Counted from the stretch's first letter, positions 3,579 through 59,296 are shown. The stretch is DNA of 64,000 bases from Minisyncoccota bacterium (GCA_041664465.1 JBAYKP010000001.1:68204-132203); one strand, 5' to 3'. Notes: generated from the sequence alone by a model not told the origin. Made by a program: numbers and translations.

Positions 3579-3579
3579 A

Positions 3580-3622
3580 ATTCTTAATTCGTAATTCTTA
3601 ATTATTAATTCTTAATTCTTTA
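3580..3622. repeat. tandem heptamer TTAATTC (x~6) immediately upstream of the start codon of the Cys-rich gene
   Basis: ttcttaattcgtaattcttaattattaattcttaattctt. The same heptamer array is found upstream of frr at 12678-12722. Confidence 0.6.
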
Positions 3623-3630
3623 CTTCTAGA

Positions 3631-4863
3631 TTATGCCACAATACAGCCACCTAGGCAAATGTCGCCATCGTAGACTACGATAGACTGACCTTTATCCACC
3701 AGTACATTTTTATTAAAAGTTATTTCACAGGTCAGACCTGTGCAGACTACTTTGCAATCTAAAAGCTCTCCGTGGTAACGAATTTGAGCAGTATACCCGC
3801 CTTGACTCGTCGGCGAGGCAGGAGCTTTATTTTTTTCTGGTATCTCTAGAATCCAATTTGCCTTACTACATAGGACCGTCCTATGTAGTATACCAGTTGG
3901 ACTGGTATATTCTTCCCCTAGGCAAGGCCTAGGGGAAACTGTAATTGTGTTTTTTTCTATATCTTTTGAAACTACATATAAAGGTTTGCTATTATCTTCA
4001 TTTTTGAAAATTGTAAATCCGTGACGTTCTCCGAGTGTGAAGAATATCGCACCGTCGTGTGAACCTATAACTTTTTCTTTTTTATCCTCTTCTCGGCGAG
4101 CAAGTAATACATCCCCCCTCTTAGTTTCAATATAATGTTTAAGAAAATCTTTCATATCTAAAGGACCTAAGAAGCAGACACCTTGACTGTCCTTCTTCAC
4201 TGCTGTCGGAAGTTTATATTTCTCTGCTAATTTGCGCACTTCTGTCTTCTCTAAATGTCCTACTGGAAATAAAGTATGACTCAAATCATCTTGAGTAAGA
4301 GTCCAAAGAAAATATGATTGGTCTTTAGAGGTATCGGGAGATTTAAGTAGGTAATTCTGAATTTTTTCCTCCCCTGCTAAGGGGAGGTGGCTCCTAGCCG
4401 GAGGGGTCTGACCCCCTCGCCCTTCGGGCACTCCCCCTTGGCAGGGGGAGATTGAATTCACTGCATAATGCCCTGTTGCAATAAAATCTGCTCCACGCTC
4501 TTTTGCAAATTCCCAAAAGACTCCAAACTTCACCATGCGGTTGCACATTACATCTGGGTTTGGAGTGTTCCCCTTTTTGTACTCTTCTATCATATAGTCT
4601 GCCACACCTTTCTTGTAAGCCTCTTCTGCATCACATTCTAAAAATGGTATATCGAGATGTGCACAGACTCGCATTGCATCACGTCTTTCATCCTTCCAAG
4701 TGCACTCTATAAAGTCCGGCGACCACGTACGAATAAAAACCCCAACGACGTTGAATCCTTGATCTTTAAGAAGTGCTGTCGCGACGGAGCTATCCACTCC
4801 ACCCGACACACCCACAAATACAGTTTTATTTATTTTCTTTCCCATCTTGCGAAAATTCCACAA
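3631..4863 (-). CDS. mnmA: tRNA-specific 2-thiouridylase MnmA, enlarged by in-frame palindromic insertions
   Basis: MGKKINKTVFVGVSGGVDSS (PP-loop), FIATGHYA, DQSYFLW, ICLGG. The likely true start is M at 4845. The protein is ~410 aa against ~360 typical, because of the inserts at 4368-4450 and 3866-3935. Confidence 0.9.
   Translation of the reverse strand: MWNFRKMGKKINKTVFVGVSGGVDSSVATALLKDQGFNVVGVFIRTWSPDFIECTWKDERRDAMRVCAHLDIPFLECDAEEAYKKGVADYMIEEYKKGNTPNPDVMCNRMVKFGVFWEFAKERGADFIATGHYAVNSISPCQGGVPEGRGGQTPPARSHLPLAGEEKIQNYLLKSPDTSKDQSYFLWTLTQDDLSHTLFPVGHLEKTEVRKLAEKYKLPTAVKKDSQGVCFLGPLDMKDFLKHYIETKRGDVLLARREEDKKEKVIGSHDGAIFFTLGERHGFTIFKNEDNSKPLYVVSKDIEKNTITVSPRPCLGEEYTSPTGILHRTVLCSKANWILEIPEKNKAPASPTSQGGYTAQIRYHGELLDCKVVCTGLTCEITFNKNVLVDKGQSIVVYDGDICLGGCIVA
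3728..3740. repeat. short palindrome caggtcAgacctg (AGGTC-N-GACCT module) inside mnmA
   Basis: Perfect 6-bp arms. The same module is found at 5355-5410. Confidence 0.4.
3866..3935. repeat. three adjacent GC-rich palindromes inserted in frame in mnmA
   Basis: ctacataggac-c-gtcctatgtag (11-bp arms), taccagt-tgg-actggta, and cccctaggc-aag-gcctagggg (9-bp arms). They encode ...HRTVLCSK...SPRPCLGEE. Confidence 0.7.
4368..4450. repeat. 83-nt composite GC-rich palindromic element inserted in frame in mnmA
   Basis: cctcccc-tgctaa-ggggagg, gagggg-tctgac-cccctc, and ctccccc-ttggca-gggggag hairpins in an otherwise AT-rich gene. It encodes ...PCQGGVPEGRGGQTPPARSHLPLAGEE... between the conserved GHYA and DQSYFL motifs. 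Confidence 0.75.
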
Positions 4864-5747
4864 GGAAGTAATCTTTTACTCCCACTTTCTTCTATAACAA
4901 GCTCCCCTCCCTCTATTTTACCTTTATAATCCTTCATTAAATCTCGTAAATTATTTTCGTAAACAATAGAAGAATACCCTGCAGTATACCCATTTATAAG
5001 AATAAATAAAGGGTCATCTGAGAGAACTTGCCCACATAAATTCATAAGATTTAGAAAATCTTCTTCTATCTTCCAAAGTTCATCTTTCGGACCATGCCCA
5101 AAAGATGGTGGATCCATAATGATTGCATCATATTTTCTTCCTCTCTTTACTTCTCTTTTCAAAAATAAAACTACATCTTCTATAAGCCATCTGATAGAAG
5201 CATCTTTGAGTCCTGAGAGTTCTGCATTTGTCCTTGCCCATTCTACTGCATTTTTAGATCCATCTACGTGGCAAACTTCCGCTCCAGCTAAAGCAGCAGC
5301 AAGTGTCGCTCCGCCAGTATAAGCAAATAAATTTAAAACAGAAATTGGTTTATTCCCATAGGTCAGACCTAGGGACTTTTTACTTTCTGCCCCTAGGTCT
5401 GACCTATGGGAATTCTTAATCAATTCTTTCATCCATTCCCAATTTGAAAGTTGCTCGGGGAAAAGTCCTATGTGTTTAAAAGAAGTCGGCTTTATAGAAA
5501 ATTTTAAATCTCCATAAGATATATTCCAATTATTTGGAACACCGTTTTTAATTATCCATTTATTCTTTGTGCCATTACGAATAAATTCCAAGTGAGCTTC
5601 TTGCCACTCTTTATCATTTAAATTCTTTTTCCAAAGAGCTTCAGGATCCGGACGTGACATAGTATACTTGCCATATCTCTCAAGCTTTTGTCCCTCGCCT
5701 GAATCAAGTAATTCGTATTCTTTTTGTTTTGTAGTTTTTAAAATCAT
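4830..5747 (-). CDS. class I SAM-dependent rRNA methyltransferase, RlmI/RlmK-like (COG1092 / PF10672-like)
   Basis: VLNLFAYTGGATLAAALAGA (SAM-binding motif I) and KYDAIIMDPPSFGHG (motif IV). The overall order resembles RlmI/YccW-type 23S rRNA m5C methyltransferases. It carries an in-frame palindrome at 5355-5410. Confidence 0.65.
   Translation of the reverse strand: MILKTTKQKEYELLDSGEGQKLERYGKYTMSRPDPEALWKKNLNDKEWQEAHLEFIRNGTKNKWIIKNGVPNNWNISYGDLKFSIKPTSFKHIGLFPEQLSNWEWMKELIKNSHRSDLGAESKKSLGLTYGNKPISVLNLFAYTGGATLAAALAGAEVCHVDGSKNAVEWARTNAELSGLKDASIRWLIEDVVLFLKREVKRGRKYDAIIMDPPSFGHGPKDELWKIEEDFLNLMNLCGQVLSDDPLFILINGYTAGYSSIVYENNLRDLMKDYKGKIEGGELVIEESGSKRLLPCGIFARWERK
5355..5410. repeat. 20-bp perfect inverted repeat (cccataggtcagacctaggg ... 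ccctaggtctgacctatggg) with a 16-nt spacer, in frame inside the methyltransferase gene
   Basis: Read directly. It encodes the extra segment ...ESKKSLGLTYGNKP... immediately before the SAM-binding motif. Confidence 0.7.
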
Positions 5748-15642: not shown

Positions 15643-17640
15643 ATGTATATAGTCACAGTCATTCCAATACAAAAAGGATTCCAAAAGGAAAACCTCTCTT
15701 ACTTTTCGCCACAAGATATTCCGCTTGGAAGTATCGTCTCTATCCCTATCAAATCTAAAACCGTAGATGCAATTGTAATAAACGTAGAAGACGCTCGTAA
15801 TTTAAAATTTGACTTAAAAAAGGCTGATTTTCAATTAAAAAAGATAATCGGGGTGAAAGGTCATTCCCCTTTCTCGTCTGCCTTTTTTAGTGCTTGTGAA
15901 AAAATGAAAGATTATACAGTGAGCAATACTGGTACTATTATTAAAGCGCTTCTTCCTAGTGCTTTTTTAGAAAATTTAACCGCCTTATCGGCGGTCCGCC
16001 GAAAAGGCGGAAAGGAAGACTCCATAGAAATAAGTCCAGAAGAAAATATTAATGAAAAAATAGAACTAAAAAATATCAAACAAGAAAAATTAATATTCCA
16101 AGCTCTGACACCTGATCGTATGAGCTGGTATAGGACACTCATAAGAGAAGCCTTTGCTAAGAAAGAATCCGTCTTCATCTGCGTCCCGACTCATTATGAT
16201 ACAGAACAATTCAAGAACGAGCTCACGAAAGGTATTAGCCAATACGTCTTCTCTTTCCATGGAGATTTAAATAAGAAAACTCTCATTAGTAGCTACAACT
16301 CTTGCATCAATGAACCTCATCCGATACTTATCATCGGAACTGGAATGTTCTTGTCAATCCCGAGAGACGATATTAAAACTATCATCATAGAACATGAGAA
16401 TTCCGACGCTTACAAACAATATGCTAGACCTTTCATTGATATCAGAACTTTTGCTGAAATACTTTCTTCTATAAATAAAGTTAAACTAATTTTCGGTGAT
16501 ACGCTTCTCCGCCCAGATACACTTTATAGGCACGATGAAGGCGAGCTTGGCGAAGTCGCCTCTCCCTTATTTCGTTTACCACAAGCTGAAAGGCAAATGG
16601 TCGTAGATATGAAGGAAGAAATAGATGAAAAAGGTTCAAAGACTTTCACTGTCTTATCAGAGACAACAAAAAAGATGATCTCTTACGCAATAGAACACAA
16701 TGAATCTGTATTATTGTTTACTATACGTAAAGGACTTGCTGGGGTGACAGTCTGCCACGATTGTGGGAATACACTTCTCTGCCCTAATTGCTCTACCCCC
16801 GTAGTCTTGTATGGATCCAAGCAACGTAATGCTACGAAGATAGTAAATTCGCGTATATTTATGTGCAACAAATGCGGACACAAAGAAAATACCGAAGTAA
16901 GATGTGCTATTTGTTCTAGTTGGAATCTTACCCCGCTTGGTATTGGTACTGACAGAGTATATGAAGAGGTTTCGAAACTTTATCCAAATACAAAAATAAT
17001 CCAGATGGATAAAGAGACAATTGGTACAGATAAAGAAGCTAAAGAAGCAATAACCTTATTCTATAAAAATCCTGGAAGCATTCTCATAGGAACTGAGATG
17101 GTTTTCTCTTATTTAAATACGGGGGTTATACATAGTGCTATCATTTCGCTCGATGGACTTCTCTCTATTCCAAGTTTCAATATTACACAAAAGATTCTAC
17201 ACATAATGGAAAAGCTCCATGAGATAACGAAACGTAATCTCGTAATCCAGACTCGTATCCCAGAGAATGGAATCTTGGAGCATATTCTAAATGGCAATGT
17301 CCTACCCCTCTATCGCGAAGATTTGAAAGAAAGGAAACAGTTTGGCTATCCACCATTTAAACGACTTATAAAAATAACTTTCGCAGGATCTGCCACAGAT
17401 ACAGAGAAAGCCCGCTCTTTCATAGATAGATATCTAGGAGGATATGAGCCACAGATATTCAGTGCCTTTATAGGGAAAGTGAAAGGTGAATACATTACCA
17501 ATACAATCATCAAGATAGATCCTACTCTCTGGCCATTACCGATAGATGACAAGAATACTTTAAGCACACACCTCTCGGAGAATCTCCATCATCTCTCCCC
17601 ATCATTCTCTATAAACGTAGACCCCGAAGATTTGCTATAA
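15643..17640 (+). CDS. priA: primosomal protein N' (PriA) homologue with degenerate helicase ATPase motifs
   Basis: PriA architecture is present: an N-terminal 3'-DNA-binding-like domain, and the Cys-rich zinc region CHDCGNTLLCPNCSTPVVLY...MCNKCGHKEN...CAICSS. Walker A (GxxGSGKT) is replaced by ALTPDRMSWY, and DEEH is replaced by IIEHENSDAYKQ. Confidence 0.75.
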   Translation: MYIVTVIPIQKGFQKENLSYFSPQDIPLGSIVSIPIKSKTVDAIVINVEDARNLKFDLKKADFQLKKIIGVKGHSPFSSAFFSACEKMKDYTVSNTGTIIKALLPSAFLENLTALSAVRRKGGKEDSIEISPEENINEKIELKNIKQEKLIFQALTPDRMSWYRTLIREAFAKKESVFICVPTHYDTEQFKNELTKGISQYVFSFHGDLNKKTLISSYNSCINEPHPILIIGTGMFLSIPRDDIKTIIIEHENSDAYKQYARPFIDIRTFAEILSSINKVKLIFGDTLLRPDTLYRHDEGELGEVASPLFRLPQAERQMVVDMKEEIDEKGSKTFTVLSETTKKMISYAIEHNESVLLFTIRKGLAGVTVCHDCGNTLLCPNCSTPVVLYGSKQRNATKIVNSRIFMCNKCGHKENTEVRCAICSSWNLTPLGIGTDRVYEEVSKLYPNTKIIQMDKETIGTDKEAKEAITLFYKNPGSILIGTEMVFSYLNTGVIHSAIISLDGLLSIPSFNITQKILHIMEKLHEITKRNLVIQTRIPENGILEHILNGNVLPLYREDLKERKQFGYPPFKRLIKITFAGSATDTEKARSFIDRYLGGYEPQIFSAFIGKVKGEYITNTIIKIDPTLWPLPIDDKNTLSTHLSENLHHLSPSFSINVDPEDLL

Positions 17641-24639: not shown

Positions 24640-24835
24640 AATAAAGGCAATAAAGTTGCTAATAAATTTCACCGGGACCGTGAGTACACTTATCGACGAT
24701 TACATCGTCAGGTACTTTTCGCTCTGTTTAGCAACAGAGAACGAAAAGTCTTTCGCTTCCCGGACGCGAGATATGCAGATATCTCGCTTAGGGTCACAAA
24801 TTAAAAACACCCTCTTTCGAGAGGTTTTTAATTTG
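24640..24835 (-). ncRNA. candidate structured RNA or multi-hairpin terminator region immediately 3' of tRNA-Glu
   Basis: Four consecutive stem-loops on one strand. One is gggtcacaaattaaaaac.ccctct/agagg.tttttaatttgtgaccc, a ~22-bp stem overlapping the tRNA 3' acceptor strand. The others are cgcgagatatgc-a-gatatctcgc, cttttcgctctgtt/aacagagaacgaaaag and gacgat-gta-atcgtc. No ORF of significance. Confidence 0.25.
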
Positions 24836-24907
24836 TGACCCTACCGGGAATCGAACCCGGATTACCGGCTTGAAAAGCCGATGTCCTAACCGTTAGACGA
24901 TAAGGCC
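24836..24907 (-). tRNA. tRNA-Glu (anticodon TTC)
   Basis: Reverse complement is GGCCTTATCGTCTAACGGTTAGGACATCGGCTTTTCAAGCCGGTAATCCGGGTTCGATTCCCGGTAGGGTCA. The acceptor stem has two G-U pairs and the anticodon loop is TTTTCAA. Confidence 0.75.
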
Positions 24908-38367: not shown

Positions 38368-38910
38368 ATGATTAAAATTGTTCAAAGTGAAGATCCAGTC
38401 CTACGCAAAATATCAAAGGAAGTTCCTCTCGCTCTCATCAGCAAACCGAAAATACAAAAAATCGTACAAGATATGATGGTGGCTTTAGATTCTCAAGATG
38501 ATGGTGTAGCTATTGCTGCTCCACAGATAGGAGTATCACTTCGTATCTTTGTAATCTCTGGAAGAATTTTCGATGAAGATTTCATTAGAGGAAAAGGCTC
38601 AACGCAAGGCGATCTCTACAAGAAAGCTCGTCGCCCTGATATGGTCTTTATCAATCCAATATTGAAGAAGATATCTAAAGATAGAAAGCTCCTATCCGAA
38701 GGATGCCTCTCTGTCCGACCTCTATATGGCAAAGTCCGCCGTGCCACTCGTGCCTCAGTCGAAGCTTATGATGAAAATGGCAAGAAATTTAGCAAAGATG
38801 GAAATGGATTACTCGCTCATATTTTTCAACACGAGACAGATCATCTAGATGGAATACTCTTCACAGACAAAGCAAAAGATATACACGAAACGCTTTTAGA
38901 TGAAGAATAA
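38368..38910 (+). CDS. def: peptide deformylase
   Basis: GVAIAAPQIG (motif 1), EGCLSV (motif 2) and HETDHLDG (motif 3). Confidence 0.9.
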   Translation: MIKIVQSEDPVLRKISKEVPLALISKPKIQKIVQDMMVALDSQDDGVAIAAPQIGVSLRIFVISGRIFDEDFIRGKGSTQGDLYKKARRPDMVFINPILKKISKDRKLLSEGCLSVRPLYGKVRRATRASVEAYDENGKKFSKDGNGLLAHIFQHETDHLDGILFTDKAKDIHETLLDEE

Positions 38911-38911
38911 A

Positions 38912-38936
38912 CCTAGCAAGAACGGTTCTTGCTAGG
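38912..38936. repeat. REP palindrome cctagcaagaac-G-gttcttgctagg (12-bp arms), followed by two half-copies that overlap the 3' end of the RAYT gene
   Basis: Perfect palindrome. Half-repeats ttcttgctagg run to ~38975. Confidence 0.75.
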
Positions 38937-38955
38937 TTCTTGCTAGGTTTTCTTG

Positions 38956-39636
38956 CTAGGTTTGAGGTTCTAGGGTTTCAAAATAATTTTCAACAAATTC
39001 CTTAAAAGATTGTTTATTATGAAAATAATCTGGAAAATTATCTTTATTTAAAATACTATTTTCTATTCTATCATCTCCTGTATAATCTTGATAACTAGAA
39101 TATTTATATGATTCTAAAAAGTTCTTCATATCTACTGATGACTTATTCAAATTATCTTCCCACTCAGGAAATTCTATCTCTAATGAATTAAGATGAATAT
39201 ATGCAAATAATTGTCTTAAATAATTATCATCATTCCCTACTAATTTAGCTTTAAATAATCCTCCAAATAATGCTCCTTTTCTTTGATATTTTATATTAAA
39301 AAACATTGAATATCCTACTCCTAATTTTCTCATAAATTTAGTTATACCACCATCAACATCTTGTCTAACTAATATGTGAAAGTGATTGTTCATCAAACAC
39401 CACGCACCAATAGAGATAATACTCTTTTCTTTTTTGATTTTTAAAATATCATAGTATTTTTTATTTTGATTATTTACAAGATTATCAATCCGAAAAGATT
39501 CTTCAGAGTTTGCGAGATAAAGAAGCATAATAAATCTTTCATAATCTCCTTTGATTTTAAAAATTACTCTCTTATCAATACCCCTATTATAAATATGGTA
39601 ATATTCTCCTGTTATAAATGGATCTTTCCTTAACAT
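38956..39636 (-). CDS. IS200/IS605-family Y1 (HUH) transposase, REP-associated tyrosine transposase (RAYT)-like
   Basis: GEYYHIYNRG..., LMNNHFHILV (HUH motif) and ...QLFAYIHLNSL (candidate catalytic Tyr). It is flanked on both sides by the same 25-bp REP. Confidence 0.6.
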   Translation of the reverse strand: MLRKDPFITGEYYHIYNRGIDKRVIFKIKGDYERFIMLLYLANSEESFRIDNLVNNQNKKYYDILKIKKEKSIISIGAWCLMNNHFHILVRQDVDGGITKFMRKLGVGYSMFFNIKYQRKGALFGGLFKAKLVGNDDNYLRQLFAYIHLNSLEIEFPEWEDNLNKSSVDMKNFLESYKYSSYQDYTGDDRIENSILNKDNFPDYFHNKQSFKEFVENYFETLEPQT

Positions 39637-39662
39637 AATTATATTATATCAATTTCAAACGC

Positions 39663-39687
39663 ACCTAGCAAGAACGGTTCTTGCTAG
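39663..39687. repeat. REP palindrome copy (same orientation as 38912) plus a half-copy
   Basis: cctagcaagaacggttcttgctagg, followed by tagttcttgctagg. Confidence 0.75.
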
Positions 39688-39716
39688 GTAGTTCTTGCTA
39701 GGTTCTATAAAATATA

Positions 39717-40295: not shown

Positions 40296-40350
40296 GTAAT
40301 ATTGCGAATAGTCTCACGAAATATCAAAAGGTGATATCGTGATATCGAAA

Positions 40351-40375
40351 CCTAGCAAGAACCGTTCTTGCTAGG
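40351..40375. repeat. REP palindrome copy in inverted orientation (central C)
   Basis: cctagcaagaac-C-gttcttgctagg, preceded by the direct repeat gtgatatcgtgatatcg. Confidence 0.7.
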
Positions 40376-40404
40376 TGGAGGAGGTGTGATATACTCTGTG
40401 GTAT

Positions 40405-41280
40405 ATGAATACAGAGAAAAAGAATCTAAAATTTATATTCTTTGGGACACCCTATGCCGCAAGTAAGACATTGCAAATACTTAAAGAAAGAGGATATATA
40501 CCAGAAGTGATTGTGACCTCTCCCGATGCAAAAAAGGGGCGTGGCTTGGAAATGCACGAAACGTCAGTATCAACTTGGGCTAAGGAGAATAATATAAAAT
40601 GCTTAAAGCCTGAAAAAATTGATGAAGAATTTATAAATAATATTTTCCCTAGCCACAAGTCCGACTTGTGGCCGATACTTTCTGTAGTTGTGGCTTATGG
40701 GAAAATACTCCCAGAAATACTAATCAAAAAGCCTGAATTTGGAACTATAAATGTTCATTATTCCCTTCTTCCAAAATACAGAGGTGCATCTCCTCTTGAG
40801 GCTTGCCTATTAAATGGAGATGAAGTTACTGGGGTAAGTATTCAGCAGATGGAATATAAATTAGACAGTGGGCAAATATTACGAGAAGAGAAAATAGATA
40901 TAGGTATAAATGATACTAAAGAAGAATTACGTGAGACTCTCATAAGTCTAGGAGGAAATGTCTTATGTGATATTTTACCCCAAATAGTAAACCAAGAAAT
41001 TAAATCAAAAGCTCAAGATGAGAATCTAGCGACCTTCTGTAAGAAAATTAAAAAAGAAGATGGGGAAATCAATCTAGAAGAAAATGCTAAAGAGAATTGG
41101 AATAAATACAGAGCTTACTCTGGCTGGCCTGGGGTATTCTTCTTTGCAACTAAACATAATAAAAAGATAAGGTGCAAAATAACCAAAGCTAAATTAGAAA
41201 ATAATCAATTTATTATTGAAAAAATAATACCGGAAAGTAAAAAGGAGATAGATTATGAATCTTTCTTAAAACAAAATTAG
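40405..41280 (+). CDS. fmt: methionyl-tRNA formyltransferase
   Basis: KFIFFGTPYAA, VVVAYGKILP, INVHYSLLPKYRGASPL. It carries a 21-bp palindrome (40653-40673) in frame (...PSHKSDLWPI...). Confidence 0.85.
   Translation: MNTEKKNLKFIFFGTPYAASKTLQILKERGYIPEVIVTSPDAKKGRGLEMHETSVSTWAKENNIKCLKPEKIDEEFINNIFPSHKSDLWPILSVVVAYGKILPEILIKKPEFGTINVHYSLLPKYRGASPLEACLLNGDEVTGVSIQQMEYKLDSGQILREEKIDIGINDTKEELRETLISLGGNVLCDILPQIVNQEIKSKAQDENLATFCKKIKKEDGEINLEENAKENWNKYRAYSGWPGVFFFATKHNKKIRCKITKAKLENNQFIIEKIIPESKKEIDYESFLKQN
40653..40673. repeat. palindrome gccacaagtc-c-gacttgtggc in frame inside fmt
   Basis: 10-bp arms. A near-identical element (gccataagtccgacttatggc) lies inside rnhB. Confidence 0.65.
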
Positions 41281-50414: not shown

Positions 50415-50438
50415 CCTAACAAGAACCGTTCTTGCTAT
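50415..50438. repeat. degenerate REP copy (cctaacaagaac-c-gttcttgctat)
   Basis: Two mismatches relative to the 38912 REP. It is intergenic, next to the R-M/MazG block. Confidence 0.5.
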
Positions 50439-55883: not shown

Positions 55884-58538
55884 ATGATAACGAAATTGAA
55901 AAATAACAAAAAGAGAGTTCGCCTAGAGGACTATATCTCCCCTGTTAGCTACAATCTGACCTTACATCCTGACCTTTTGTCTTCTACTTTTTCGGGACGC
56001 GAAATTATAAAAATAAAAGTGGATAAAGAAATAAAACAAATCACTTTGCATAGTAAAGATATAGATATAGAAACGGTAGAGCACATAGCAGATGGCACGC
56101 AACAATTTGCCCATAAAATCACATACGATGCAAAGAGAGAAACTGCAACTTTCTATTTTAAAAATAAAATAAAAAAAGGGCAGAGCGAGCTCTCAATTAT
56201 TTTCAGTGGTATCATCAATGATAATTTGAGAGGATTTTATAAAAGTAGATACATACTAGATGGTGAAGAGAAATTCATAGCCACGACCCAGTTCGAAGCA
56301 ACAGATGCTCGCCGTGCTTTCCCTTGCTTTGATGAGCCAGCACACAAAGCAATATTTGAAGTATCGCTCGTAATACCTGAGAATCACACAGCCATATCAA
56401 ATACTTTACCTATTGAAATAAAGGAGCACAGTCTCGGATACAACATAGTATCTTTCTCTCCCACGCCGATAATGTCTACTTACCTACTCGCATTTATTAT
56501 CGGCGAGTTTGAATATGTGGAGGGATATACCCGTCCGAACGGGTCATCCGGGCAGGCTAAGGACAAGGTTCTTGTCCGTGTATTCACAACTTCTGGTAAA
56601 AAGCATCAAGCCAAATTTGCATTGGAAGTCGCTATCAAATCACTTGAATTTTATAATGAATATTTTGATATACCCTATCCACTTCCTACCTTAGACCTCA
56701 TCGCTATCCCCGACTTCGAAAGTGCGGCAATGGAGAACTGGGGGGCCATCACTTTCCGCGAGACGGCTATACTCGTTGATGATCTACATACTTCCCTTTC
56801 AAACAAACAATGGGCAGCGATAGTGATAGCCCACGAATTGGCACATCAGTGGTTCGGCAATCTAGTGACGATGCATTGGTGGACAGACCTCTGGCTCAAT
56901 GAAGGCTTTGCTTCATATATGGAAAATTTATGTACGGATCACCTCTTTCCAGACTGGCATGTATGGGATTTAAATATTGCCGATAGATATGCTGTCGCTC
57001 TCAAGCTTGATTCACTTGCCACTTCACATCCAATAGAAGTAGTCGTCCACCACCCAGATGAAATAAGTGAAATCTTTGATATGGTCTCTTATGCTAAAGG
57101 CTCTGCGATGATAAAAATGCTGGCAGAATATCTAGGGCACGACAAATTCCGCGATGGGCTACGTCACTATTTGAAAAAGCACAGTTATGGTAATACCAAT
57201 ACCGTAGATCTCTGGAATGCTTTTGAGAAAGTAAGCAAAAAGAAAGTAATAGAAATAATGAATTCTTGGACGAAAGAAACCGGCTATCCACTCGTGACAA
57301 TTTCCCCTAGGCAAGGCCTAGGGGAAATGTGGGAAATCAGACAAGAGCGATTTTTCTCAAGTAGAGTGAAAGCTTCTGAATATAAAAATTCAAAAAGTAA
57401 AAAACACTTGTGGCAAATACCTGTGAAATACGAAAGCCTGTCGGATAATAGAGAAGTTATGGATATGCTCATGACTAAAAAATCTGCTCCAATGATTGGC
57501 ACCTCTATCGGCAAAGTAAACAAAGAAGAAGGAACATTTATACGAGTCTGCTATGATCAAGAGACTCTTAAAAAATTGAAAGAAGAAATACAAAATGGGA
57601 AACTTTCTGTGAAAGATAGACTGGGAGTTATTCGTGATATGTTCGCTCTGGCTGAAGGTGGATACATCAGTACGATAGAAGTACTTGAATTCTCTCTCGT
57701 ATATAAAAATGAAACAGAGTTCATCGTCTGGTCTGAAATAGCGAGTGGTATAAATAGAGTGGCAAATATATTGGGCGAAGAAAAATTTAAAAATCTATAC
57801 GATAAATACGTACTCACATTATTTAGTCACATCGCAAAAGAATTGGGGTGGGGAGAAACCCCCTCGCCCTCTGGGCACTCCCCCTTAACAGGGGGAGACA
57901 AACACTCACAAGTTTTCTTGCGGAGTCTAGCACTCTCTATGTCGGCACATTATGGAGACAAGAAAGTAATTACCGAAGCCAAAAAACTCTTTAAAAATAA
58001 GGCTAAAATGCCAATAAGAGCTGACATCCGCGGAGTAGTCTACAACATTGTGGCTGCAAGTGGCGGGGAGAAGGAATGGAAACTTTTCGAAAAGTTATAC
58101 AAAGAAGAAGAATTTCATGAAGAGAAGGATAGATATGCTAGGGCATTAACTTCATTTAAAAATAAAGATCTACTTCGGAAAACTTTAAACTTTGCTATAT
58201 CAAGAGACGTTCGTGTTCAAGACGCTCCATTCATAATAGTGGCCGTCTGGCAGAATAGTATAGGTAAAGACATTACTTGGAAGTTTATAAAAAGTAATTG
58301 GAAAATAATTGTGAAAAAGTTTGGCGAGGGTGGACATTTCCTCTCCCGAGTCCTCTCTCCTCTCGGTACTCATACAAAAGAAAAAGATTACAAAGACATT
58401 AAAAATTTCTTTGCTAAAAATGTCGCCCCTGGCTCTGCCCGCACCCTCCTCCAATCCTACGAACGCATCGAGTCCAACATCGCTTGGCTCAAAGATGACA
58501 AAGCCTCTATCAAATCTTGGCTAACAAAAAATTACTAG
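55884..58538 (+). CDS. pepN: aminopeptidase N (M1 family)
   Basis: GAMENWG, the HELAHQWFGNLVTMHWW zincin motif, and LWLNEGFASY. It carries in-frame palindromic inserts at 57304-57324 and 57845-57897. Confidence 0.9.
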   Translation: MITKLKNNKKRVRLEDYISPVSYNLTLHPDLLSSTFSGREIIKIKVDKEIKQITLHSKDIDIETVEHIADGTQQFAHKITYDAKRETATFYFKNKIKKGQSELSIIFSGIINDNLRGFYKSRYILDGEEKFIATTQFEATDARRAFPCFDEPAHKAIFEVSLVIPENHTAISNTLPIEIKEHSLGYNIVSFSPTPIMSTYLLAFIIGEFEYVEGYTRPNGSSGQAKDKVLVRVFTTSGKKHQAKFALEVAIKSLEFYNEYFDIPYPLPTLDLIAIPDFESAAMENWGAITFRETAILVDDLHTSLSNKQWAAIVIAHELAHQWFGNLVTMHWWTDLWLNEGFASYMENLCTDHLFPDWHVWDLNIADRYAVALKLDSLATSHPIEVVVHHPDEISEIFDMVSYAKGSAMIKMLAEYLGHDKFRDGLRHYLKKHSYGNTNTVDLWNAFEKVSKKKVIEIMNSWTKETGYPLVTISPRQGLGEMWEIRQERFFSSRVKASEYKNSKSKKHLWQIPVKYESLSDNREVMDMLMTKKSAPMIGTSIGKVNKEEGTFIRVCYDQETLKKLKEEIQNGKLSVKDRLGVIRDMFALAEGGYISTIEVLEFSLVYKNETEFIVWSEIASGINRVANILGEEKFKNLYDKYVLTLFSHIAKELGWGETPSPSGHSPLTGGDKHSQVFLRSLALSMSAHYGDKKVITEAKKLFKNKAKMPIRADIRGVVYNIVAASGGEKEWKLFEKLYKEEEFHEEKDRYARALTSFKNKDLLRKTLNFAISRDVRVQDAPFIIVAVWQNSIGKDITWKFIKSNWKIIVKKFGEGGHFLSRVLSPLGTHTKEKDYKDIKNFFAKNVAPGSARTLLQSYERIESNIAWLKDDKASIKSWLTKNY
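57304..57324. repeat. palindrome cccctaggc-aag-gcctagggg in frame in pepN (the same element is found in mnmA at 3915-3935)
   Basis: Identical 21-mer to the mnmA copy. Here it encodes SPRQGLGEM. Confidence 0.7.
57845..57897. repeat. GC-rich composite palindromic element in frame in pepN (same family as mnmA 4368-4450)
   Basis: ggggtggggagaaaccccctcgccctctgggcactccccc-ttaaca-gggggag shares ccccctcgccct.cgggcactccccctt..cagggggag with the mnmA element. It encodes GWGETPSPSGHSPLTGGD. Confidence 0.7.
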
Positions 58539-58570
58539 AACAAAACTGACTAGGTCTTGCCTAGTCGGTT

Positions 58571-59296
58571 TTAGTGTATAAATGACTTGCGATGGATTGG
58601 GGTCTGACCGTGAGTTCTGATGGCAGAATAGTGAGCGCGGGTACCATAACCCATATGCTTATTGAAACCGTATTCGGGGTAATCCAAAGCATACTTTGTC
58701 ATAATCCTATCTCGCGAAACTTTCGCCACAATGGATGCCAAAGAAATAACCGGATGAAGCTCATCCCCTCTTATAATCGTCTCCTGATTTATGTACTCTA
58801 CTGGGGCATGAAGTCCACCATCGAGAAAAATCTTGAACGAAGAGAGCGAAACAGAATCTTCCAAATTTTTATCGGCGTCGGAGCCCTTTAGGGTAAGCCC
58901 TGAAAAATTTGGAAGATTCTGTGAAGCGACTTTATCAAGTGACTGATTCAAAGCTTTCTGAATACATTTTGCAATTCCAAATTTATCAATATTCTCGGGG
59001 GAAACAAAAGACACAGCATAGTCGCAAAGACCTTCGGTCTTTGCGACTTTCAAATATTCAAACCACTCTTCCCTTTGCTTCTTACTAAGCTTCTTCGAAT
59101 CTTTTAATTTTGGTAATTTTACATAGGACGGTCCTATGTCTTTTTTGCCATAAGTCCGACTTATGGCTGATTCAATAAAATTATTATCCTTAATTAAAAA
59201 AGCACAAACAGCCACTGGCCCTGCCAAAGGGCCCCGACCAACCTCATCTATGCCAATTATGTATTTTGTGGTGTCTAAAGCTCCCATATAGAACAA
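58571..59296 (-). CDS. rnhB: ribonuclease HII
   Basis: IIGIDEVGRGPLAGPVAVCA (DEVGRG catalytic motif). It carries two in-frame palindromes at 59121-59167. Confidence 0.85.
   Translation of the reverse strand: MFYMGALDTTKYIIGIDEVGRGPLAGPVAVCAFLIKDNNFIESAISRTYGKKDIGPSYVKLPKLKDSKKLSKKQREEWFEYLKVAKTEGLCDYAVSFVSPENIDKFGIAKCIQKALNQSLDKVASQNLPNFSGLTLKGSDADKNLEDSVSLSSFKIFLDGGLHAPVEYINQETIIRGDELHPVISLASIVAKVSRDRIMTKYALDYPEYGFNKHMGYGTRAHYSAIRTHGQTPIHRKSFIH
59121..59167. repeat. two palindromes (acataggac-g-gtcctatgt and gccataagtc-c-gacttatggc) in frame in rnhB
   Basis: They are related to the mnmA element ctacataggaccgtcctatgtag and the fmt element gccacaagtccgacttgtggc. They encode ...RTYGKKDIGPSYVKLPK.... 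Confidence 0.7.

What the first reader, a model, noticed from the sequence alone, without database searches (positions are those of the whole stretch)
3866..3935. Three back-to-back palindromes in the mnmA C-terminal region
ctacataggac-c-gtcctatgtag, taccagt-tgg-actggta and cccctaggc-aag-gcctagggg lie within 70 nt, all in frame. Two of the three have relatives elsewhere in the window (rnhB, pepN). The clustering suggests a hotspot or nested insertions.
Basis: seen in the sequence. Interest (0 to 1): 0.55.

Follow-up and report, generated by a model that had tools for sequence, protein, structure and literature searches.

The report
REP-like palindromes inserted in-frame in mnmA
The three hairpin-forming palindromes in the tRNA-modification gene mnmA are most likely copies of tiny selfish DNA repeats (REP-like elements, probably spread by a hairpin-recognising transposase of a type this window encodes) sitting in-frame in a protein loop; the kind is known, but not from these ultra-small CPR bacteria.

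Summary
Three perfect palindromes (arms 13, 9 and 11 nt) abut at 3864-3937 inside mnmA (- strand), far beyond chance, with exact relatives in pepN and rnhB. They encode MnmA residues 309-334, the linker between two domains.

They are DNA-level elements, not a protein motif. Palindrome 3 is the same 25-mer that flanks HUH/Y1 'REP-associated tyrosine transposase'-like genes in metagenomic contigs. The window encodes such a gene (38956-39636, -), bracketed by its own cognate palindrome. This is the REP/RAYT ('REPtron') arrangement.

Orthologue comparison (80 species) shows mnmA is a true hotspot:
- Hairpin density is 5-fold higher inside mnmA than outside (p=3e-10).
- Sites are empty, filled or decayed in different species, and sister species carry different palindromes at the same codon.
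- Stems are frozen at synonymous positions and change only by complementary double substitutions.

Intragenic REPs are already described (Di Nocera 2013; Rickettsia RPEs), so the kind is known. New here:
- the phylum (CPR/Nomurabacteria);
- the lack of the GTAG/CGTC tag;
- in-frame copies inside the transposase gene itself.

Palindromes 1 and 2 are linked to a RAYT only by analogy. Verdict: new variant of a known kind, moderate interest.

The parts
3864..3890 (.). Palindrome 1 (type 1): TACTACATAGGAC-C-GTCCTATGTAGTA. It encodes (I)LHRTVLCS(K) in MnmA, at 'site B' just before the conserved NWI.
   Evidence: sequence and position. The same core sits at the same codon position in L002, L009, L016, L017 and L028, and is decayed in L001, L003, L008 and L010. 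All 5 stem codons keep their third base in 6 taxa, against an 18% background, P=2e-4. A second copy lies in rnhB at 59121-59139.
3889..3909 (.). Palindrome 2 (type 2): TATACCAGT-TGG-ACTGGTATA. It encodes YTSPTGI and appears to be the youngest of the three.
   Evidence: sequence. It is found only in the window and P0003, and is absent in the closest relatives L016, L002, L001 and L003. Relatives of the type (CCACCAGTC-C-GACTGGTGG) occur in L015 and L025 mnmA, a 608-aa ORF of L053, L029, and in another frame in L065. They also occur in the rnhB loop of other species as TSPTGG.
3913..3937 (.). Palindrome 3 (S-type REP): TTCCCCTAGGC-AAG-GCCTAGGGGAA. It encodes SPRPCLGE at 'site A', just after the conserved ITV.
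   Evidence: sequence. An identical 25-mer lies in pepN (57300-57328) and inside the RAYT gene of L135, whose upstream flank carries the CTT-loop form TCCCCTAGGC-CTT-GCCTAGGGGA. The family has 106 distinct copies in fetched DNA. Covariation at the orthologous site: 9 of 12 pairs change on both sides.
3724..3744 (.). Fourth palindrome in the MnmA C-terminal barrel: (T)TCACAGGTC-A-GACCTGTG(C)A, encoding CTGLTCE ('site C').
   Evidence: sequence. It is shared with L016, L002, L009 and L004 and absent or different in others.
3796..3825 (-). A 10-codon GC-rich insertion, APASPTSQGG ('site P'), that forms only a weak imperfect hairpin.
   Evidence: Present only in the window, P0001 and P0002. It is unaligned against solved MnmA. 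Fold energy is -11.5 kcal/mol.
4368..4450 (.). Second cluster in mnmA: five consecutive GC-rich hairpins in-frame, within SPCQGGVPEGRGGQTPPARSHLPLAGEEK (residues 139-167).
   Evidence: -59 kcal/mol, z = -4.5. GC is 0.67-0.72. The insertion is absent from many orthologues and from solved MnmA. The same family occurs in L007, P0007 and P0025.
3631..4863 (-). mnmA (tRNA 2-thiouridine synthase), the host gene. The true start is probably the ATG at 4845.
   Evidence: Pfam; orthologues of 352-465 aa; solved MnmA structures.
5352..5413 (.). REPIN-like doublet, in-frame in the neighbouring SAM-methyltransferase gene. Two S-like palindromes lie in inverted orientation (23-nt perfect long-range arms, 16-nt spacer) and encode SHRSDLGAESKKSLGLTYG.
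   Evidence: I1, the longest inverted repeat in the window; sequence. It is present only in the window and L016 (plus L168 and L177), empty in most orthologues, and occupied by other insert families in some.
38956..39636 (-). RAYT-like HUH/Y1 transposase gene (226 aa). The HUH motif is NNHFHILV and the catalytic Tyr lies in AYIHLNS.
   Evidence: Pfam Y1_Tnp 34.8 bits, cutoff 23. The only NCBIfam hit is REP-associated tyrosine transposase, 24.9 bits, below its cutoff. It is 41% identical (E=5e-42) to the RAYT-like genes flanked by S-type palindromes. The profile's best PDB hit is 4ER8 TnpA-REP, E=0.04. P0121 is 100% identical.
38910..38938 (.). W-type REP, AACCTAGCAAGAAC-G-GTTCTTGCTAGGTT, immediately downstream of the RAYT gene. 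Tandem half-arm copies follow it up to about 38975.
39663..39689 (.). W-type REP 53 nt upstream of the RAYT start, just upstream of a TATAAT-like box. An extra half-arm copy lies at about 39690-39703.
   Evidence: Homologous RAYTs in other species carry GCAAGAAC-S-GTTCTTGC at the same places.
40350..40376 (.). Third W-type REP, intergenic, upstream of fmt. A degenerate fourth copy lies at 50417-50437.
40652..40672 (.). In-frame palindrome GCCACAAGTC-C-GACTTGTGGC in fmt, encoding SHKSDLW.
57300..57328 (.). S-type REP in pepN, ATTTCCCCTAGGC-AAG-GCCTAGGGGAAAT, encoding SPRQGLGE. Its core is identical to palindrome 3, in the opposite loop orientation relative to the gene.
57878..57897 (.). Palindrome CTCCCCCT-TAAC-AGGGGGAG in pepN. 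It is the same type as the outer hairpins of the mnmA mid-gene cluster.
   Evidence: sequence. It lies within a 10-aa insertion (SPSGHSPLTG) relative to solved M1 peptidases.
59121..59167 (.). Two adjacent in-frame palindromes in rnhB: type 1 at 59121-59139 (DIGPSYV) and GCCATAAGTC-C-GACTTATGGC at 59147-59167 (AISRTYG).
   Evidence: They form a 17+3-aa insertion relative to solved RNase HII. The loop is empty in the closest orthologues P0246, P0247, P0254 and P0338.
59018..59050 (.). In-frame palindrome AGTCGCAAAGACC-TTC-GGTCTTTGCGACT in rnhB, encoding KVAKTEGLCDY.
   Evidence: It is 4 aa longer than solved RNase HII at that position.

Best explanation
The three palindromes are REP-like elements: 19-27-nt hairpin-forming repeats of the kind mobilised by REP-associated tyrosine (HUH/Y1) transposases (RAYTs). 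They lie in-frame in the linker between the PRC-barrel and C-terminal barrel domains of MnmA.

Shown:
- They are DNA-level repeats. The same sequence is read in different frames in different genes.
- The palindrome-3 family is dispersed over many genes and intergenic DNA, and it brackets RAYT-like genes.
- The window encodes a RAYT-like gene bracketed by its own cognate palindrome.
- Orthologous sites are empty, filled, decayed or filled with a different palindrome in related species.
- Stems are held constant at synonymous positions and otherwise change only by Watson-Crick double substitutions.

Inferred mechanism:
- The RAYT binds the hairpin extruded in single-stranded DNA, for example on the lagging-strand template. 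It cleaves at the hairpin's foot and transfers or exchanges the element without a target duplication.
- Existing hairpins attract further copies, or are swapped for other variants. This would give back-to-back clusters and turnover at fixed sites.
- Selection then keeps only copies that preserve the frame, avoid the TAG-containing frames (only one of three frames of CCTAGG-type palindromes is open, hence always SPR..LGE), and fall in permissive surface loops. That makes a few loops of mnmA, rnhB and the methyltransferase look like hotspots.

Age at this locus:
- Palindromes 1 and 3 are old at this locus, shared by a clade.
- Palindrome 2 is a later addition between them.

Strength of the RAYT link:
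- Direct for palindrome 3 (S-type).
- By analogy only for palindromes 1 and 2.
- The window's own RAYT pairs with a different palindrome type (W-type).
For: - **DNA-level repeat.** The type-1 core is read LHRTVLC in mnmA and DIGPSYV in rnhB. Type-2 relatives are read TSPTG or YQSDWY.
- **Dispersal.** An exact-pattern scan gave 100 metagenomic loci. About 8 copies are in mnmA. Hosts of at least 150 aa fall in 14 unrelated protein clusters, and many copies lie in short ORFs, probably intergenic.
- **RAYT link.** The largest host cluster is a 217-244-aa HUH/Tyr protein (Pfam Y1_Tnp; only NCBIfam hit REP_Tyr_transpos, E=1e-11).
  - A homologue lies next to the palindrome in 27 of the metagenomic loci (25 full-length, 2 fragments), plus one in the window.
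  - All of the complete genes with enough flank carry a cognate perfect palindrome 31-113 nt upstream of the start (mostly 37-59), and most carry another just after the stop. The variant co-varies with the gene.
  - L135's RAYT gene contains the exact 25-mer of palindrome 3, and its upstream flank carries the CTT-loop form.
- **Window RAYT.** Gene 38956-39636, with W-type palindromes at 38910, 39663 and 40350. Its 70-79%-identical homologues in other species carry the same GCAAGAAC core on both sides.
- **Insertion polymorphism.** Shown in mnmA, the methyltransferase and rnhB.
- **Hotspot.** 0.362 vs 0.069 hairpins per kb, p=3e-10; 23 of 80 species.
- **Nucleotide-level constraint.** Third-base identity is 91-97% in stems against 54% gene-wide. 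5/5 stem codons are fully conserved against an 18% background, P=2e-4, using rare codons.
- **Covariation at the orthologous site.** 23 compensatory cells against 5.8+-1.9 in shuffles (0/500), with one G-U cell in 144.
- **Literature.**
  - Intragenic REP dimers and clusters encoding 20-82 aa, and REPtrons, are described in PMC3733652.
  - Perfect-palindrome 'group 3' REPs, and cleavage at a CT dinucleotide 5' or 3' of the hairpin, are described in PMC8266576.
Against: - No GTAG or CGTC tag at the foot of the hairpins (3 and 1 of 212 flanks). This is a defining feature of described REPs.
- The RAYT assignment rests on sub-threshold NCBIfam scores (24.9 and 44.8 bits against a cutoff of 80) and a marginal PDB profile hit (E=0.04). 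The AlphaFold model was unusable (pLDDT 39.5).
- The window's RAYT pairs with the W-type palindrome, not with any of the three mnmA palindromes. An S-clade RAYT was not found in the 64-kb window.
- In genome RAAC4_OD1_1, the only RAYT seen is W-type, while mnmA carries an S-type palindrome. The rest of that genome was not examined.
- No RAYT flanked by type-1 or type-2 palindromes was found.
- The unit is about 25 nt, not a multiple of three, and no junctions could be defined, so the insertion chemistry is not shown.
- The homologues are not syntenic across species.
- The % paired figure is biased, because sequences with at least 10 of 13 pairs were selected.
Confidence: 0.75

Rival explanations
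1. The palindromes are made and kept symmetric locally. Template switching (fold-back synthesis, quasi-palindrome correction) during replication copies one arm onto the other. No transposase is needed, and similar sequences at different loci are convergent.
For: - Changes are almost exclusively complementary doubles, with no one-sided intermediates.
- Arm lengths at site B grow from 9 to 15 nt into flanking native codons in different species.
- Palindrome-free orthologues already have VLC[SN] = GTTTTATGTAGT where the right arm of palindrome 1 lies (L018, L056, L013).
- Tandem half-arm copies lie beside the REPs at the RAYT gene.
- Types 1 and 2 have no demonstrated RAYT.
Against: - Exact 19-25-nt identity between unrelated genes in one genome.
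- 106 distinct copies of one stem in 14 unrelated host-protein clusters and in intergenic DNA.
- Tight physical association with RAYT-like genes.
- Ser codon TCC vs AGC/AGT switches, with matched changes in the far arm, between sister taxa. These look like replacement by a pre-formed unit.
- Template switching may still help keep the arms symmetric.
Confidence: 0.1
2. The hairpins are functional signals selected in mnmA itself. They could be mRNA structures that pause ribosomes at the domain boundary or stabilise the message, or DNA sites bound by a host factor.
For: - Stems are frozen at synonymous positions across species whose other synonymous sites are near saturation, despite rare codons.
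- The cluster sits exactly in the linker between Pfam domains M (238-310) and C (330-409).
- The predicted structure is strong.
Against: - 57 of 80 species have no perfect GC-rich hairpin in mnmA, and many have a short plain loop.
- Decayed copies exist in L001, L003, L008, L010, L012 and L017.
- The same elements occur in other genes, in other frames and between genes.
- G-U pairs, which RNA structure would tolerate, are virtually absent.
- No terminator-like site and no Rfam family.
Confidence: 0.08
3. The palindromes are solo ends or miniature derivatives of an ordinary, autonomous IS200/IS605-family insertion sequence, not of a domesticated REP/RAYT system.
For: - Pfam assigns the protein to Y1_Tnp, 'Transposase IS200 like'.
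- RAYT-model scores are below the cutoff.
- No GTAG tag.
- The gene sits in different neighbourhoods in different species.
Against: - The only NCBIfam hit is the RAYT model, not an IS200 model.
- The best PDB profile hit is TnpA-REP, ahead of ISDra2 TnpA.
- Both flanks usually carry the same perfect palindrome, rather than distinct left and right ends.
- No tnpB partner appears in the called neighbours.
- One copy per contig, with about 2,900 homologues (the 120 listed are mostly 69-79% identical) across Parcubacteria-group MAGs.
- The chemistry would be the same in either case.
Confidence: 0.12
4. The repeated element is a selected peptide motif (SPRxxLGE, HRTVLC, TSPTG), and the DNA palindromy is incidental.
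For: The peptides recur in several proteins.
Against: - The same DNA is read in other frames, giving unrelated peptides.
- Copies lie in non-coding DNA and flank RAYT genes.
- SPR..LGE is simply the only stop-free frame of the CCTAGG palindrome.
- Synonymous positions are conserved.
Confidence: 0.02

Closest known systems
REP / REPIN elements with RAYT (TnpA-REP) transposases ('REPtrons'), especially 'group 3' systems with perfect short palindromes such as Stenotrophomonas maltophilia (PMC3333891, PMC8266576, PMC3116915)
   Same: - Short (19-31 nt) hairpin-forming repeats, dispersed in the genome.
- Several sequence types per genome.
- An HUH/Y1 gene with the catalytic Tyr, bracketed by its cognate palindromes.
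- The palindrome variant co-varies with the gene.
- Doublets in inverted orientation (the methyltransferase REPIN-like pair).
- Clusters of hairpins.
- No target duplication.
   Different: - No GTAG or CGTC guide tetranucleotide at the foot. CTAG lies inside many stems instead.
- The palindromes are perfect, with a freely varying 5-nt centre.
- The protein is longer (220-235 aa, with a conserved C-terminal YSSY..FP.YF region) and only weakly matches the RAYT models.
- The host is a CPR bacterium with a very small genome.
- A large share of copies is intragenic and in-frame.
- In many cases a copy sits inside the transposase gene itself.
Intragenic REPs described by Di Nocera et al. 2013 (PMC3733652): Opitutus terrae, Thauera, Xanthomonas recB, Rickettsia conorii RPE-4/RPE-6
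   Same: - REP singletons, dimers and clusters lie inside ORFs and encode roughly 20-80 extra residues.
- Copies recur at about the same site in orthologous genes of related species.
- DNA/RNA-metabolism genes are often the hosts.
   Different: - Those are GTAG- or CGTC-tagged families in Proteobacteria and Verrucomicrobia.
- Here the elements are tag-less.
- The orthologue series is deep enough to show turnover, decay and synonymous-site freezing at single codon positions.
Rickettsia palindromic elements (RPE-1 and relatives)
   Same: - Palindromic repeats inserted in-frame into essential genes of a small, AT-rich genome.
- They are tolerated in surface loops.
- They are inherited and decay over time.
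- Longer (72-140 nt) in-frame inverted repeats of this sort also occur here: rnhB 58851-58922, and the site-N inserts of relatives.
   Different: - RPE-1 elements are 100-150 bp, and no cognate transposase is known for them.
- The three palindromes of the finding are 21-27 nt.
- Palindrome 3 is tied to an identifiable RAYT-like gene family.
GC-rich palindromic clusters of fungal mitochondrial genomes (yeast GC clusters; 'byp' elements) - from general knowledge
   Same: Short GC-enriched hairpin elements that spread in an AT-rich genome and are sometimes found inside coding regions.
   Different: - The genetic system is unrelated and no RAYT is involved.
- Byp elements are skipped by the ribosome. 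Here the hairpins are open in frame and presumably translated.

Membership tests
REP (repetitive extragenic palindrome) | Short (about 20-40 nt) stem-loop-forming palindrome | tested here: met
   Total lengths are 21-27 nt, with perfect arms of 9-13 nt and loops of 1-3 nt. The ssDNA folds have z between -4.5 and -6.5.
REP (repetitive extragenic palindrome) | Repeated many times in the genome | tested here: inconclusive
   Each type has 2-4 copies in the 64-kb window. The S-type stem has 106 distinct copies in fetched metagenomic DNA. The whole source genome could not be counted.
REP (repetitive extragenic palindrome) | Conserved GTAG (or CGTC) tetranucleotide at the 5' foot of the hairpin | tested here: not met
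   GTAG occurs in 3 and CGTC in 1 of 212 flanks of S-type copies. W-type copies lack it too. Palindrome 1 has CTAC...GTAG as the outer stem, which places GTAG on the 3' side on both strands.
REP (repetitive extragenic palindrome) | Extragenic location | tested here: not met
   The three copies, and at least a dozen more in the window, are inside ORFs and in frame. W-type copies are intergenic. Intragenic REPs are a documented exception (PMC3733652).
REP (repetitive extragenic palindrome) | Cognate RAYT gene flanked by the same palindrome (REPtron) | tested here: met
   Met for the S-type, to which palindrome 3 belongs, in metagenomic loci. Met for the W-type in the window and in L181, L184 and L186. 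Not shown for types 1 and 2. No S-clade RAYT lies in the window.
RAYT / TnpA-REP (HUH Y1 transposase) | HUH motif and catalytic tyrosine in a Y1_Tnp fold | tested here: met
   NHFH and Y-I-H-x-N are invariant or nearly invariant in alignment A3. Pfam PF01797 scores 34.8 bits for the window protein and 23.4 bits for the S clade, against a cutoff of 23. HUH and Tyr align with 4ER8. The fold itself could not be confirmed, because the model had pLDDT 39.5.
RAYT / TnpA-REP (HUH Y1 transposase) | Scores as RAYT rather than IS200 transposase with curated models | tested here: inconclusive
   NF047646 REP_Tyr_transpos is the only NCBIfam hit, but at 24.9 and 44.8 bits, below the 80-bit cutoff. The top PDB profile hit is TnpA-REP at E=0.04.
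RAYT / TnpA-REP (HUH Y1 transposase) | Single-copy, vertically inherited gene | not testable with these tools
   There is one copy in the window and one per contig in the look-ups. The neighbourhoods differ between species. Whole genomes were not available.
RAYT / TnpA-REP (HUH Y1 transposase) | Binds and cleaves its REP as single-stranded DNA | not testable with these tools
   This needs the biochemical assay of PMC8266576 (CST assay).
REPIN (REP doublet) | Two REPs in inverted orientation separated by a short spacer, forming a long hairpin | tested here: not met
   The 3864-3937 cluster consists of three different sequences, not an inverted pair. The feature is met by the methyltransferase doublet 5352-5413, which has 23-nt perfect long-range arms.
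Rickettsia palindromic elements (RPE) | 100-150-bp palindromic element inserted in-frame in ORFs of Rickettsia | tested here: not met
   In-frame insertion is met, but size (21-27 nt) and taxon are not. Longer in-frame inverted repeats exist nearby (58851-58922). No sequence comparison with RPEs was made.
Intrinsic terminator | GC-rich hairpin followed by a T run | tested here: not met
   0 terminator-like sites in 3500-5000 on either strand.

The most novel reading that the evidence does not exclude
In Nomurabacteria-type CPR bacteria, a tag-less REP/RAYT system may be more than litter in genes. The intragenic hairpins may be actively maintained. The evidence is stems frozen at synonymous sites, purely Watson-Crick covariation, and different variants swapped into the same codon position in sister species. 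This would imply either ongoing RAYT-catalysed replacement of one hairpin by another at fixed sites, or a host-level role for the hairpins. Either way, the system would be a steady generator of in-frame loop insertions in essential proteins, including its own transposase, in some of the smallest known bacterial genomes.
Probability: 0.2. Interest if true: 0.75.

Novelty: new variant of a known kind. Interest (0 to 1): 0.5.

Why it matters
**How REPs spread.** This is still unsettled. In these genomes many copies sit in-frame in conserved genes, so orthologue series give codon-resolution views of empty, filled, swapped and decayed sites that intergenic REPs cannot give.

**Scope of REP/RAYT.** The result would extend these systems to the Candidate Phyla Radiation. 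No paper in the searched library links them to that group.

**Practical relevance.**
- It offers a concrete source for the odd, variable insertions often seen in CPR proteins.
- It flags a hazard for annotation, because GC-rich hairpin clusters inside genes of MAGs could be mistaken for frameshifts or chimeras. The window's MnmA is not on record although its neighbours are. The cause is unknown.
- The lack of the GTAG guide suggests a different recognition rule for this RAYT clade.

Tried and rejected
- **Structure.** The AlphaFold2 model of the window RAYT from a 20-sequence alignment had pLDDT 39.5 and pTM 0.27. It is unusable, so no fold search was run.
- **Single-sequence PDB search with the RAYT.** No hit. 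Only the profile gave a marginal 4ER8 hit.
- **Viral-contig scans for type 1 and type 2.** 5 and 21 hits, in unrelated contigs of 21-67% GC with no RAYT nearby. This is chance level.
- **Target-site duplication and a conserved tag.** Neither was found. The TT/AA next to the stem is an artefact of the search pattern.
- **Exact insertion junctions.** Window and P0003 were compared with L016 and L002 for palindrome 2, but the sequences are too diverged to place the breakpoints.
- **Synteny of the RAYT gene.** Not conserved, so it could not be used to argue domestication.
- **Known RNA families.** Only 4 tRNAs in the window.
- **Terminator hypothesis.** No sites in mnmA.
- **Look-up of the window's MnmA.** Not on record, so the source annotation of this gene could not be checked.
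- **Protein-motif reading.** Rejected on the frame evidence.
Full report
**1. The observation**

- TACTACATAGGAC-C-GTCCTATGTAGTA, 3864-3890.
- TATACCAGT-TGG-ACTGGTATA, 3889-3909.
- TTCCCCTAGGC-AAG-GCCTAGGGGAA, 3913-3937.

They lie in the 410-codon ORF 3631..4863 on the minus strand. This ORF is MnmA by Pfam (PF03054, PF20259, PF20258). The palindromes are read through as VSPRPCLGEEYTSPTGILHRTVLCSK, residues 309-334. That is the linker between the M domain (238-310) and the C domain (330-409).

The 25-mer of palindrome 3 recurs at 57300-57328 in pepN, and the core of palindrome 1 recurs at 59121-59139 in rnhB.

The excess over chance is large:
- 15 perfect hairpins with arms of at least 13 nt, against 0.03 expected; 28 with arms of at least 9 nt, against 3.4.
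- The segment folds at -45.5 kcal/mol with z = -7.0.

Many of the longest hairpins in the window are intergenic and terminator-like, and form a separate class. The intragenic GC-enriched ones are the subject here.

**2. More of the same in mnmA and its neighbours**

mnmA carries a fourth palindrome at 3724-3744 (CTGLTCE). It also carries a second cluster of five consecutive GC-rich hairpins at 4368-4450. That cluster has GC 0.67-0.72 in a 35% GC window, and folds at -59 kcal/mol, z = -4.5.

Other in-frame elements in the window:
- The adjacent methyltransferase gene holds two S-like palindromes in inverted orientation at 5352-5413. This is the longest perfect inverted repeat in the window (23-nt arms). 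The single mismatches of each copy compensate between copies, which is the REPIN doublet architecture.
- rnhB carries three short palindromes, plus a 72-nt in-frame inverted repeat with 20-nt arms.
- fmt carries one palindrome and pepN two.

**3. DNA element, not a peptide motif**

The same DNA is read in different frames in different genes. Type 1 gives LHRTVLC in mnmA and DIGPSYV in rnhB. Type-2 relatives give TSPTG or YQSDWY.

CCTAGG-containing palindromes have TAG in two of their three frames. Every copy in a long ORF is therefore read SPR-xx-LGE. That is a survival filter, not a function.

**4. Orthologues**

The organism is a Candidatus Nomurabacteria/Paceibacterota (CPR) relative. The window's RAYT and RNase HII are 100% identical to proteins on a 133-kb NCBI MAG contig.

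MnmA orthologues range from 352 to 465 aa at 65-78% identity. The length differences are confined to five discrete sites.

In the DNA of 80 orthologous loci, the loop between ITVS and NWI shows four states:
- Intact palindromes of several variants at two fixed positions.
- Visibly decayed remnants (L001, L003, L008, L010, L012, L017, L018).
- Other insert families.
- A plain loop of about 20 codons.

Sister taxa L011 and L015 carry different palindromes at the same codon. The Ser codon there switches between TCC and AGC/AGT, with matching changes in the far arm. That looks like replacement by a pre-formed unit, not stepwise drift.

GC-rich perfect hairpins are 5.2-fold denser inside mnmA than in the flanking 6 kb (0.362 vs 0.069 per kb, binomial p = 3e-10). 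23 of 80 species have at least one.

The same pattern of empty, filled or differently filled sites holds elsewhere:
- The methyltransferase site. The doublet is present only in the window and its closest relative.
- The rnhB loop. It is empty in the closest orthologues, and it holds type-2 relatives in others.

Alignments with solved MnmA, RNase HII and M1 peptidases place most segments as extra residues. The exception is pepN's SPRQGLGE, which shows no net length change against a distant homologue.

**5. The transposase link**

An exact-pattern scan of metagenomic contigs for TTCCCCTAGG-N5-CCTAGGGGAA returned 100 loci. Only about 8 copies are in mnmA. Host ORFs of at least 150 aa fall in 14 unrelated protein clusters, and many copies are in short ORFs, probably intergenic.

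The largest host cluster is a 217-244-aa protein with an HUH motif (MPNHFH) and a YIHLNP tyrosine motif:
- It hits Pfam Y1_Tnp.
- Its only NCBIfam match is REP-associated tyrosine transposase, E = 1e-11, below the curated cutoff.
- A homologue lies beside the palindrome in 27 of the metagenomic loci (25 full-length, 2 fragments). The window adds one more, 41% identical, E = 5e-42, at 39025-39612.

That window ORF (38956-39636, minus strand) scores 34.8 bits on Y1_Tnp, against a cutoff of 23. It is bracketed by ACCTAGCAAGAAC-S-GTTCTTGCTAGGT at 38910 and 39663. A third copy lies at 40350, and tandem half-arm copies lie alongside.

All of the complete RAYT-like genes with enough flank carry a cognate perfect palindrome 31-113 nt upstream of the start (mostly 37-59). 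Most carry another just after the stop. The variant co-varies with the gene.

Two clades emerge:
- An 'S' clade pairs with CCCCTAGG-type palindromes. L135's RAYT gene contains the exact 25-mer of palindrome 3, and its upstream flank carries the CTT-loop form.
- A 'W' clade, the window's, pairs with the GCAAGAAC type. About 2,900 homologues were found; the 120 listed are mostly 69-79% identical.

Many S-clade genes carry an in-frame palindrome inside their own ORF, just after the HUH motif. It is absent from other members.

A profile of the family finds E. coli TnpA-REP (4ER8) as its best PDB match, with HUH and Tyr aligned, but only at E = 0.04. The structure prediction failed (pLDDT 39.5), so no fold search was made.

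**6. Constraint on the stems**

Six species share palindrome 1 at the same codon position. At codons with identical amino acids, third-base identity is 54% gene-wide but 91% in the palindrome, where only the loop base varies. At site A it is 97%.

With an internal control, all 5 stem codons keep one third base in all six taxa. The background is 36 of 199 equally conserved codons (P = 2e-4). Site A gives 5/5 against 30% (P = 0.002). The codons used (AGG, CTA, GTC) are the rarest synonyms in this gene.

Across 12 orthologous site-A palindromes:
- 9 of 12 stem pairs change on both sides.
- There are 23 compensatory cells, against 5.8 +- 1.9 in shuffles (0/500). Slid controls give at most 3.
- Only one G-U cell occurs among 144.

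Sequences with at least 10 of 13 pairs were selected for this count, so the percentage paired is biased upward. The near-absence of wobble pairs points to symmetry at the DNA level, where both strands matter, rather than an mRNA structure.

**7. What it is and how it probably works**

The best-supported reading is a REP/RAYT ('REPtron') system whose hairpin elements have settled in-frame in permissive protein loops.

Shown:
- repeat family;
- dispersal;
- RAYT association;
- insertion polymorphism;
- hotspot;
- nucleotide-level conservation.

Inferred from what is known of TnpA-REP and IS200/IS605 enzymes (PMC3333891, PMC8266576, PMC5027513):
- The enzyme recognises the hairpin in single-stranded DNA.
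- It cleaves at the hairpin's foot.
- It transfers strands without a target duplication.
- Existing hairpins attract or are exchanged for further copies, which would give clusters and turnover at fixed positions.

Selection then removes everything that breaks the frame or the fold.

Within the finding, palindromes 1 and 3 are old at this locus, and palindrome 2 is a later addition between them. It is shared only with P0003.

The RAYT link is direct for palindrome 3 only. For types 1 and 2 it rests on shared architecture, shared hotspots, and a core resemblance of type 1 to L173's REP (TAGGAC-G-GTCCTA).

**8. Comparison with the known**

REPs inside genes are documented by Di Nocera et al. 2013 (PMC3733652). 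They often occur there as dimers or clusters encoding 20-82 residues, and sometimes at the same site in orthologues. That paper also places Rickettsia RPE-4/-6 in this class and names the REP+RAYT unit a REPtron.

'Group 3' REPs are perfect short palindromes (PMC8266576).

Differences here:
- No GTAG or CGTC guide tetranucleotide (3 and 1 of 212 flanks).
- No target duplication.
- A constant unit of about 25 nt with a free 5-nt centre.
- A longer protein that only weakly matches the RAYT models.
- A CPR host. No paper in the library links RAYT/REPIN with CPR/Patescibacteria, and the phylogenomic survey PMC6006769 does not mention them.
- A high intragenic share, including the transposase's own gene.

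Because one defining feature (the tag) was tested and not met, I file this as a new variant of the known kind rather than a plain member.

**9. Rivals**

- Local template-switch genesis explains the clean symmetry, but not identical units in unrelated genes or the RAYT association.
- A selected mRNA or DNA signal in mnmA explains the frozen stems. It does not explain absence from 57 of 80 species, decayed copies, copies elsewhere, or the lack of wobble pairs. There are also no terminator-like sites or Rfam families.
- An ordinary IS200-type insertion sequence with miniature derivatives remains possible, and would share the same chemistry.
- A peptide motif is excluded by the frame data.

**10. 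Limits**

- Only 64 kb of the source genome was seen.
- No S-clade RAYT lies in the window.
- Junctions and chemistry are not defined.
- The RAYT assignment is supported by motifs, context and best-hit identity, but not by curated thresholds or a confident fold.

Noticed in passing
window 58851-58922 (rnhB, - strand): A 72-nt (24-codon) in-frame inverted repeat with perfect 20-nt arms (ACAGAATCTTCCAAATTTTT / AAAAATTTGGAAGATTCTGT). It encodes about SQNLPNFSGLTLKGSDADKNLEDSV. The block is missing from some rnhB orthologues (P0303, P0323, P0338, P0347). It looks like a longer RPE- or MITE-like element.
   Followed up: partly
window 5352-5413 (methyltransferase gene 4830..5747, - strand): A REPIN-like doublet of two S-like palindromes in inverted orientation, in-frame. 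It is shared only with the closest relative (L016, L168, L177). The same site holds unrelated insert families in other species (GERPCLKGAQGKAL, NYELRIKN.., FSGPRVGSPDHEK).
   Followed up: partly
L001-L080, mnmA 'site N' (after GHYA); window 4368-4450: At least seven unrelated families of 25-45-codon GC-enriched, strongly structured inserts occupy the same site of mnmA, in a patchy phylogenetic pattern. Examples are NSFREATGGGVPF..KNGVKELREKLF, TGAVHLLDSL..KKSQKVLRKLQVFASSP, SPLLVEEGVGGGD.. and SKPTRSLLRRPRLVL..SREVLLTTPSFAPAEA. Several fold as single long inverted repeats of 90-140 nt.
   Followed up: partly
L088, L118, L146, L091, L126, L160, L161, L164, L135, L122, L092 (RAYT genes); also L174, L153, L128 (C-terminus): Many S-clade RAYT-like genes carry an in-frame copy of their own cognate palindrome inside the ORF. 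It sits right after the HUH motif (NHFHIIL-ISPRSDLGE-) or at the C-terminus (SSPRKDLGE). Other members lack it, including the window's.
   Followed up: partly
window 38936-38975 and 39690-39703; L118, L092, L126, L173 flanks: Tandem extra copies of a single palindrome arm (for example TTCTTGCTAGGT, three times) lie beside the REPs that flank RAYT genes. They may be footprints of cleavage and rejoining, or of slippage.
   Followed up: no
window 39637-39662 and the equivalent upstream regions of the RAYT-like genes in fetched loci: In most of these genes, the upstream REP lies directly upstream of a TATAAT-like box, typically about 10-20 nt before the RAYT start codon. The hairpin may therefore overlap the promoter and regulate the transposase.
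   Followed up: no
window 15980-16010 (ORF 15643..17640, + strand): Twin GC-rich mini-hairpins, CCGCC-TTATC-GGCGG-T-CCGCC-GAAAA-GGCGG, lie in-frame (TALSAVRRKGG; GC 0.71). This is probably another intragenic element, of a different type.
   Followed up: no
window 58542-58572 (between convergent pepN and rnhB): An imperfect S-like palindrome, AAAACTGACTAGG-TCTTG-CCTAGTCGGTTTT, lies in the 32-nt spacer between two convergent genes. This is the classical REP location.
   Followed up: no
window 24789-24843: A perfect 20-nt-arm inverted repeat (TAGGGTCACAAATTAAAAAC / GTTTTTAATTTGTGACCCTA, 15-nt spacer) has its right arm running into the tRNA gene at 24836-24907.
   Followed up: no
window 3631-4845 (mnmA): The window's MnmA protein is not on record in the public gene collection, and its best database hit is only 78% identical. 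Yet the RAYT (P0121) and RNase HII (P0241) of the same contig are present at 100%. The gene may have been called differently or set aside in the source annotation. Any link to the hairpin clusters was not checked.
   Followed up: partly
window 55884-58538 (pepN): This CPR M1 aminopeptidase with an ERAP1-like C-terminal domain is most similar, among solved structures, to eukaryotic puromycin-sensitive aminopeptidase (E = 2e-201), well ahead of the other aminopeptidase N entries.
   Followed up: no
window 1794-3578 (- strand): A 594-aa cysteine-rich protein with many CxxC pairs. Its only match is a weak, sub-threshold hit to a treble-clef zinc-finger family (PF23477). Its function is unknown.
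   Followed up: no
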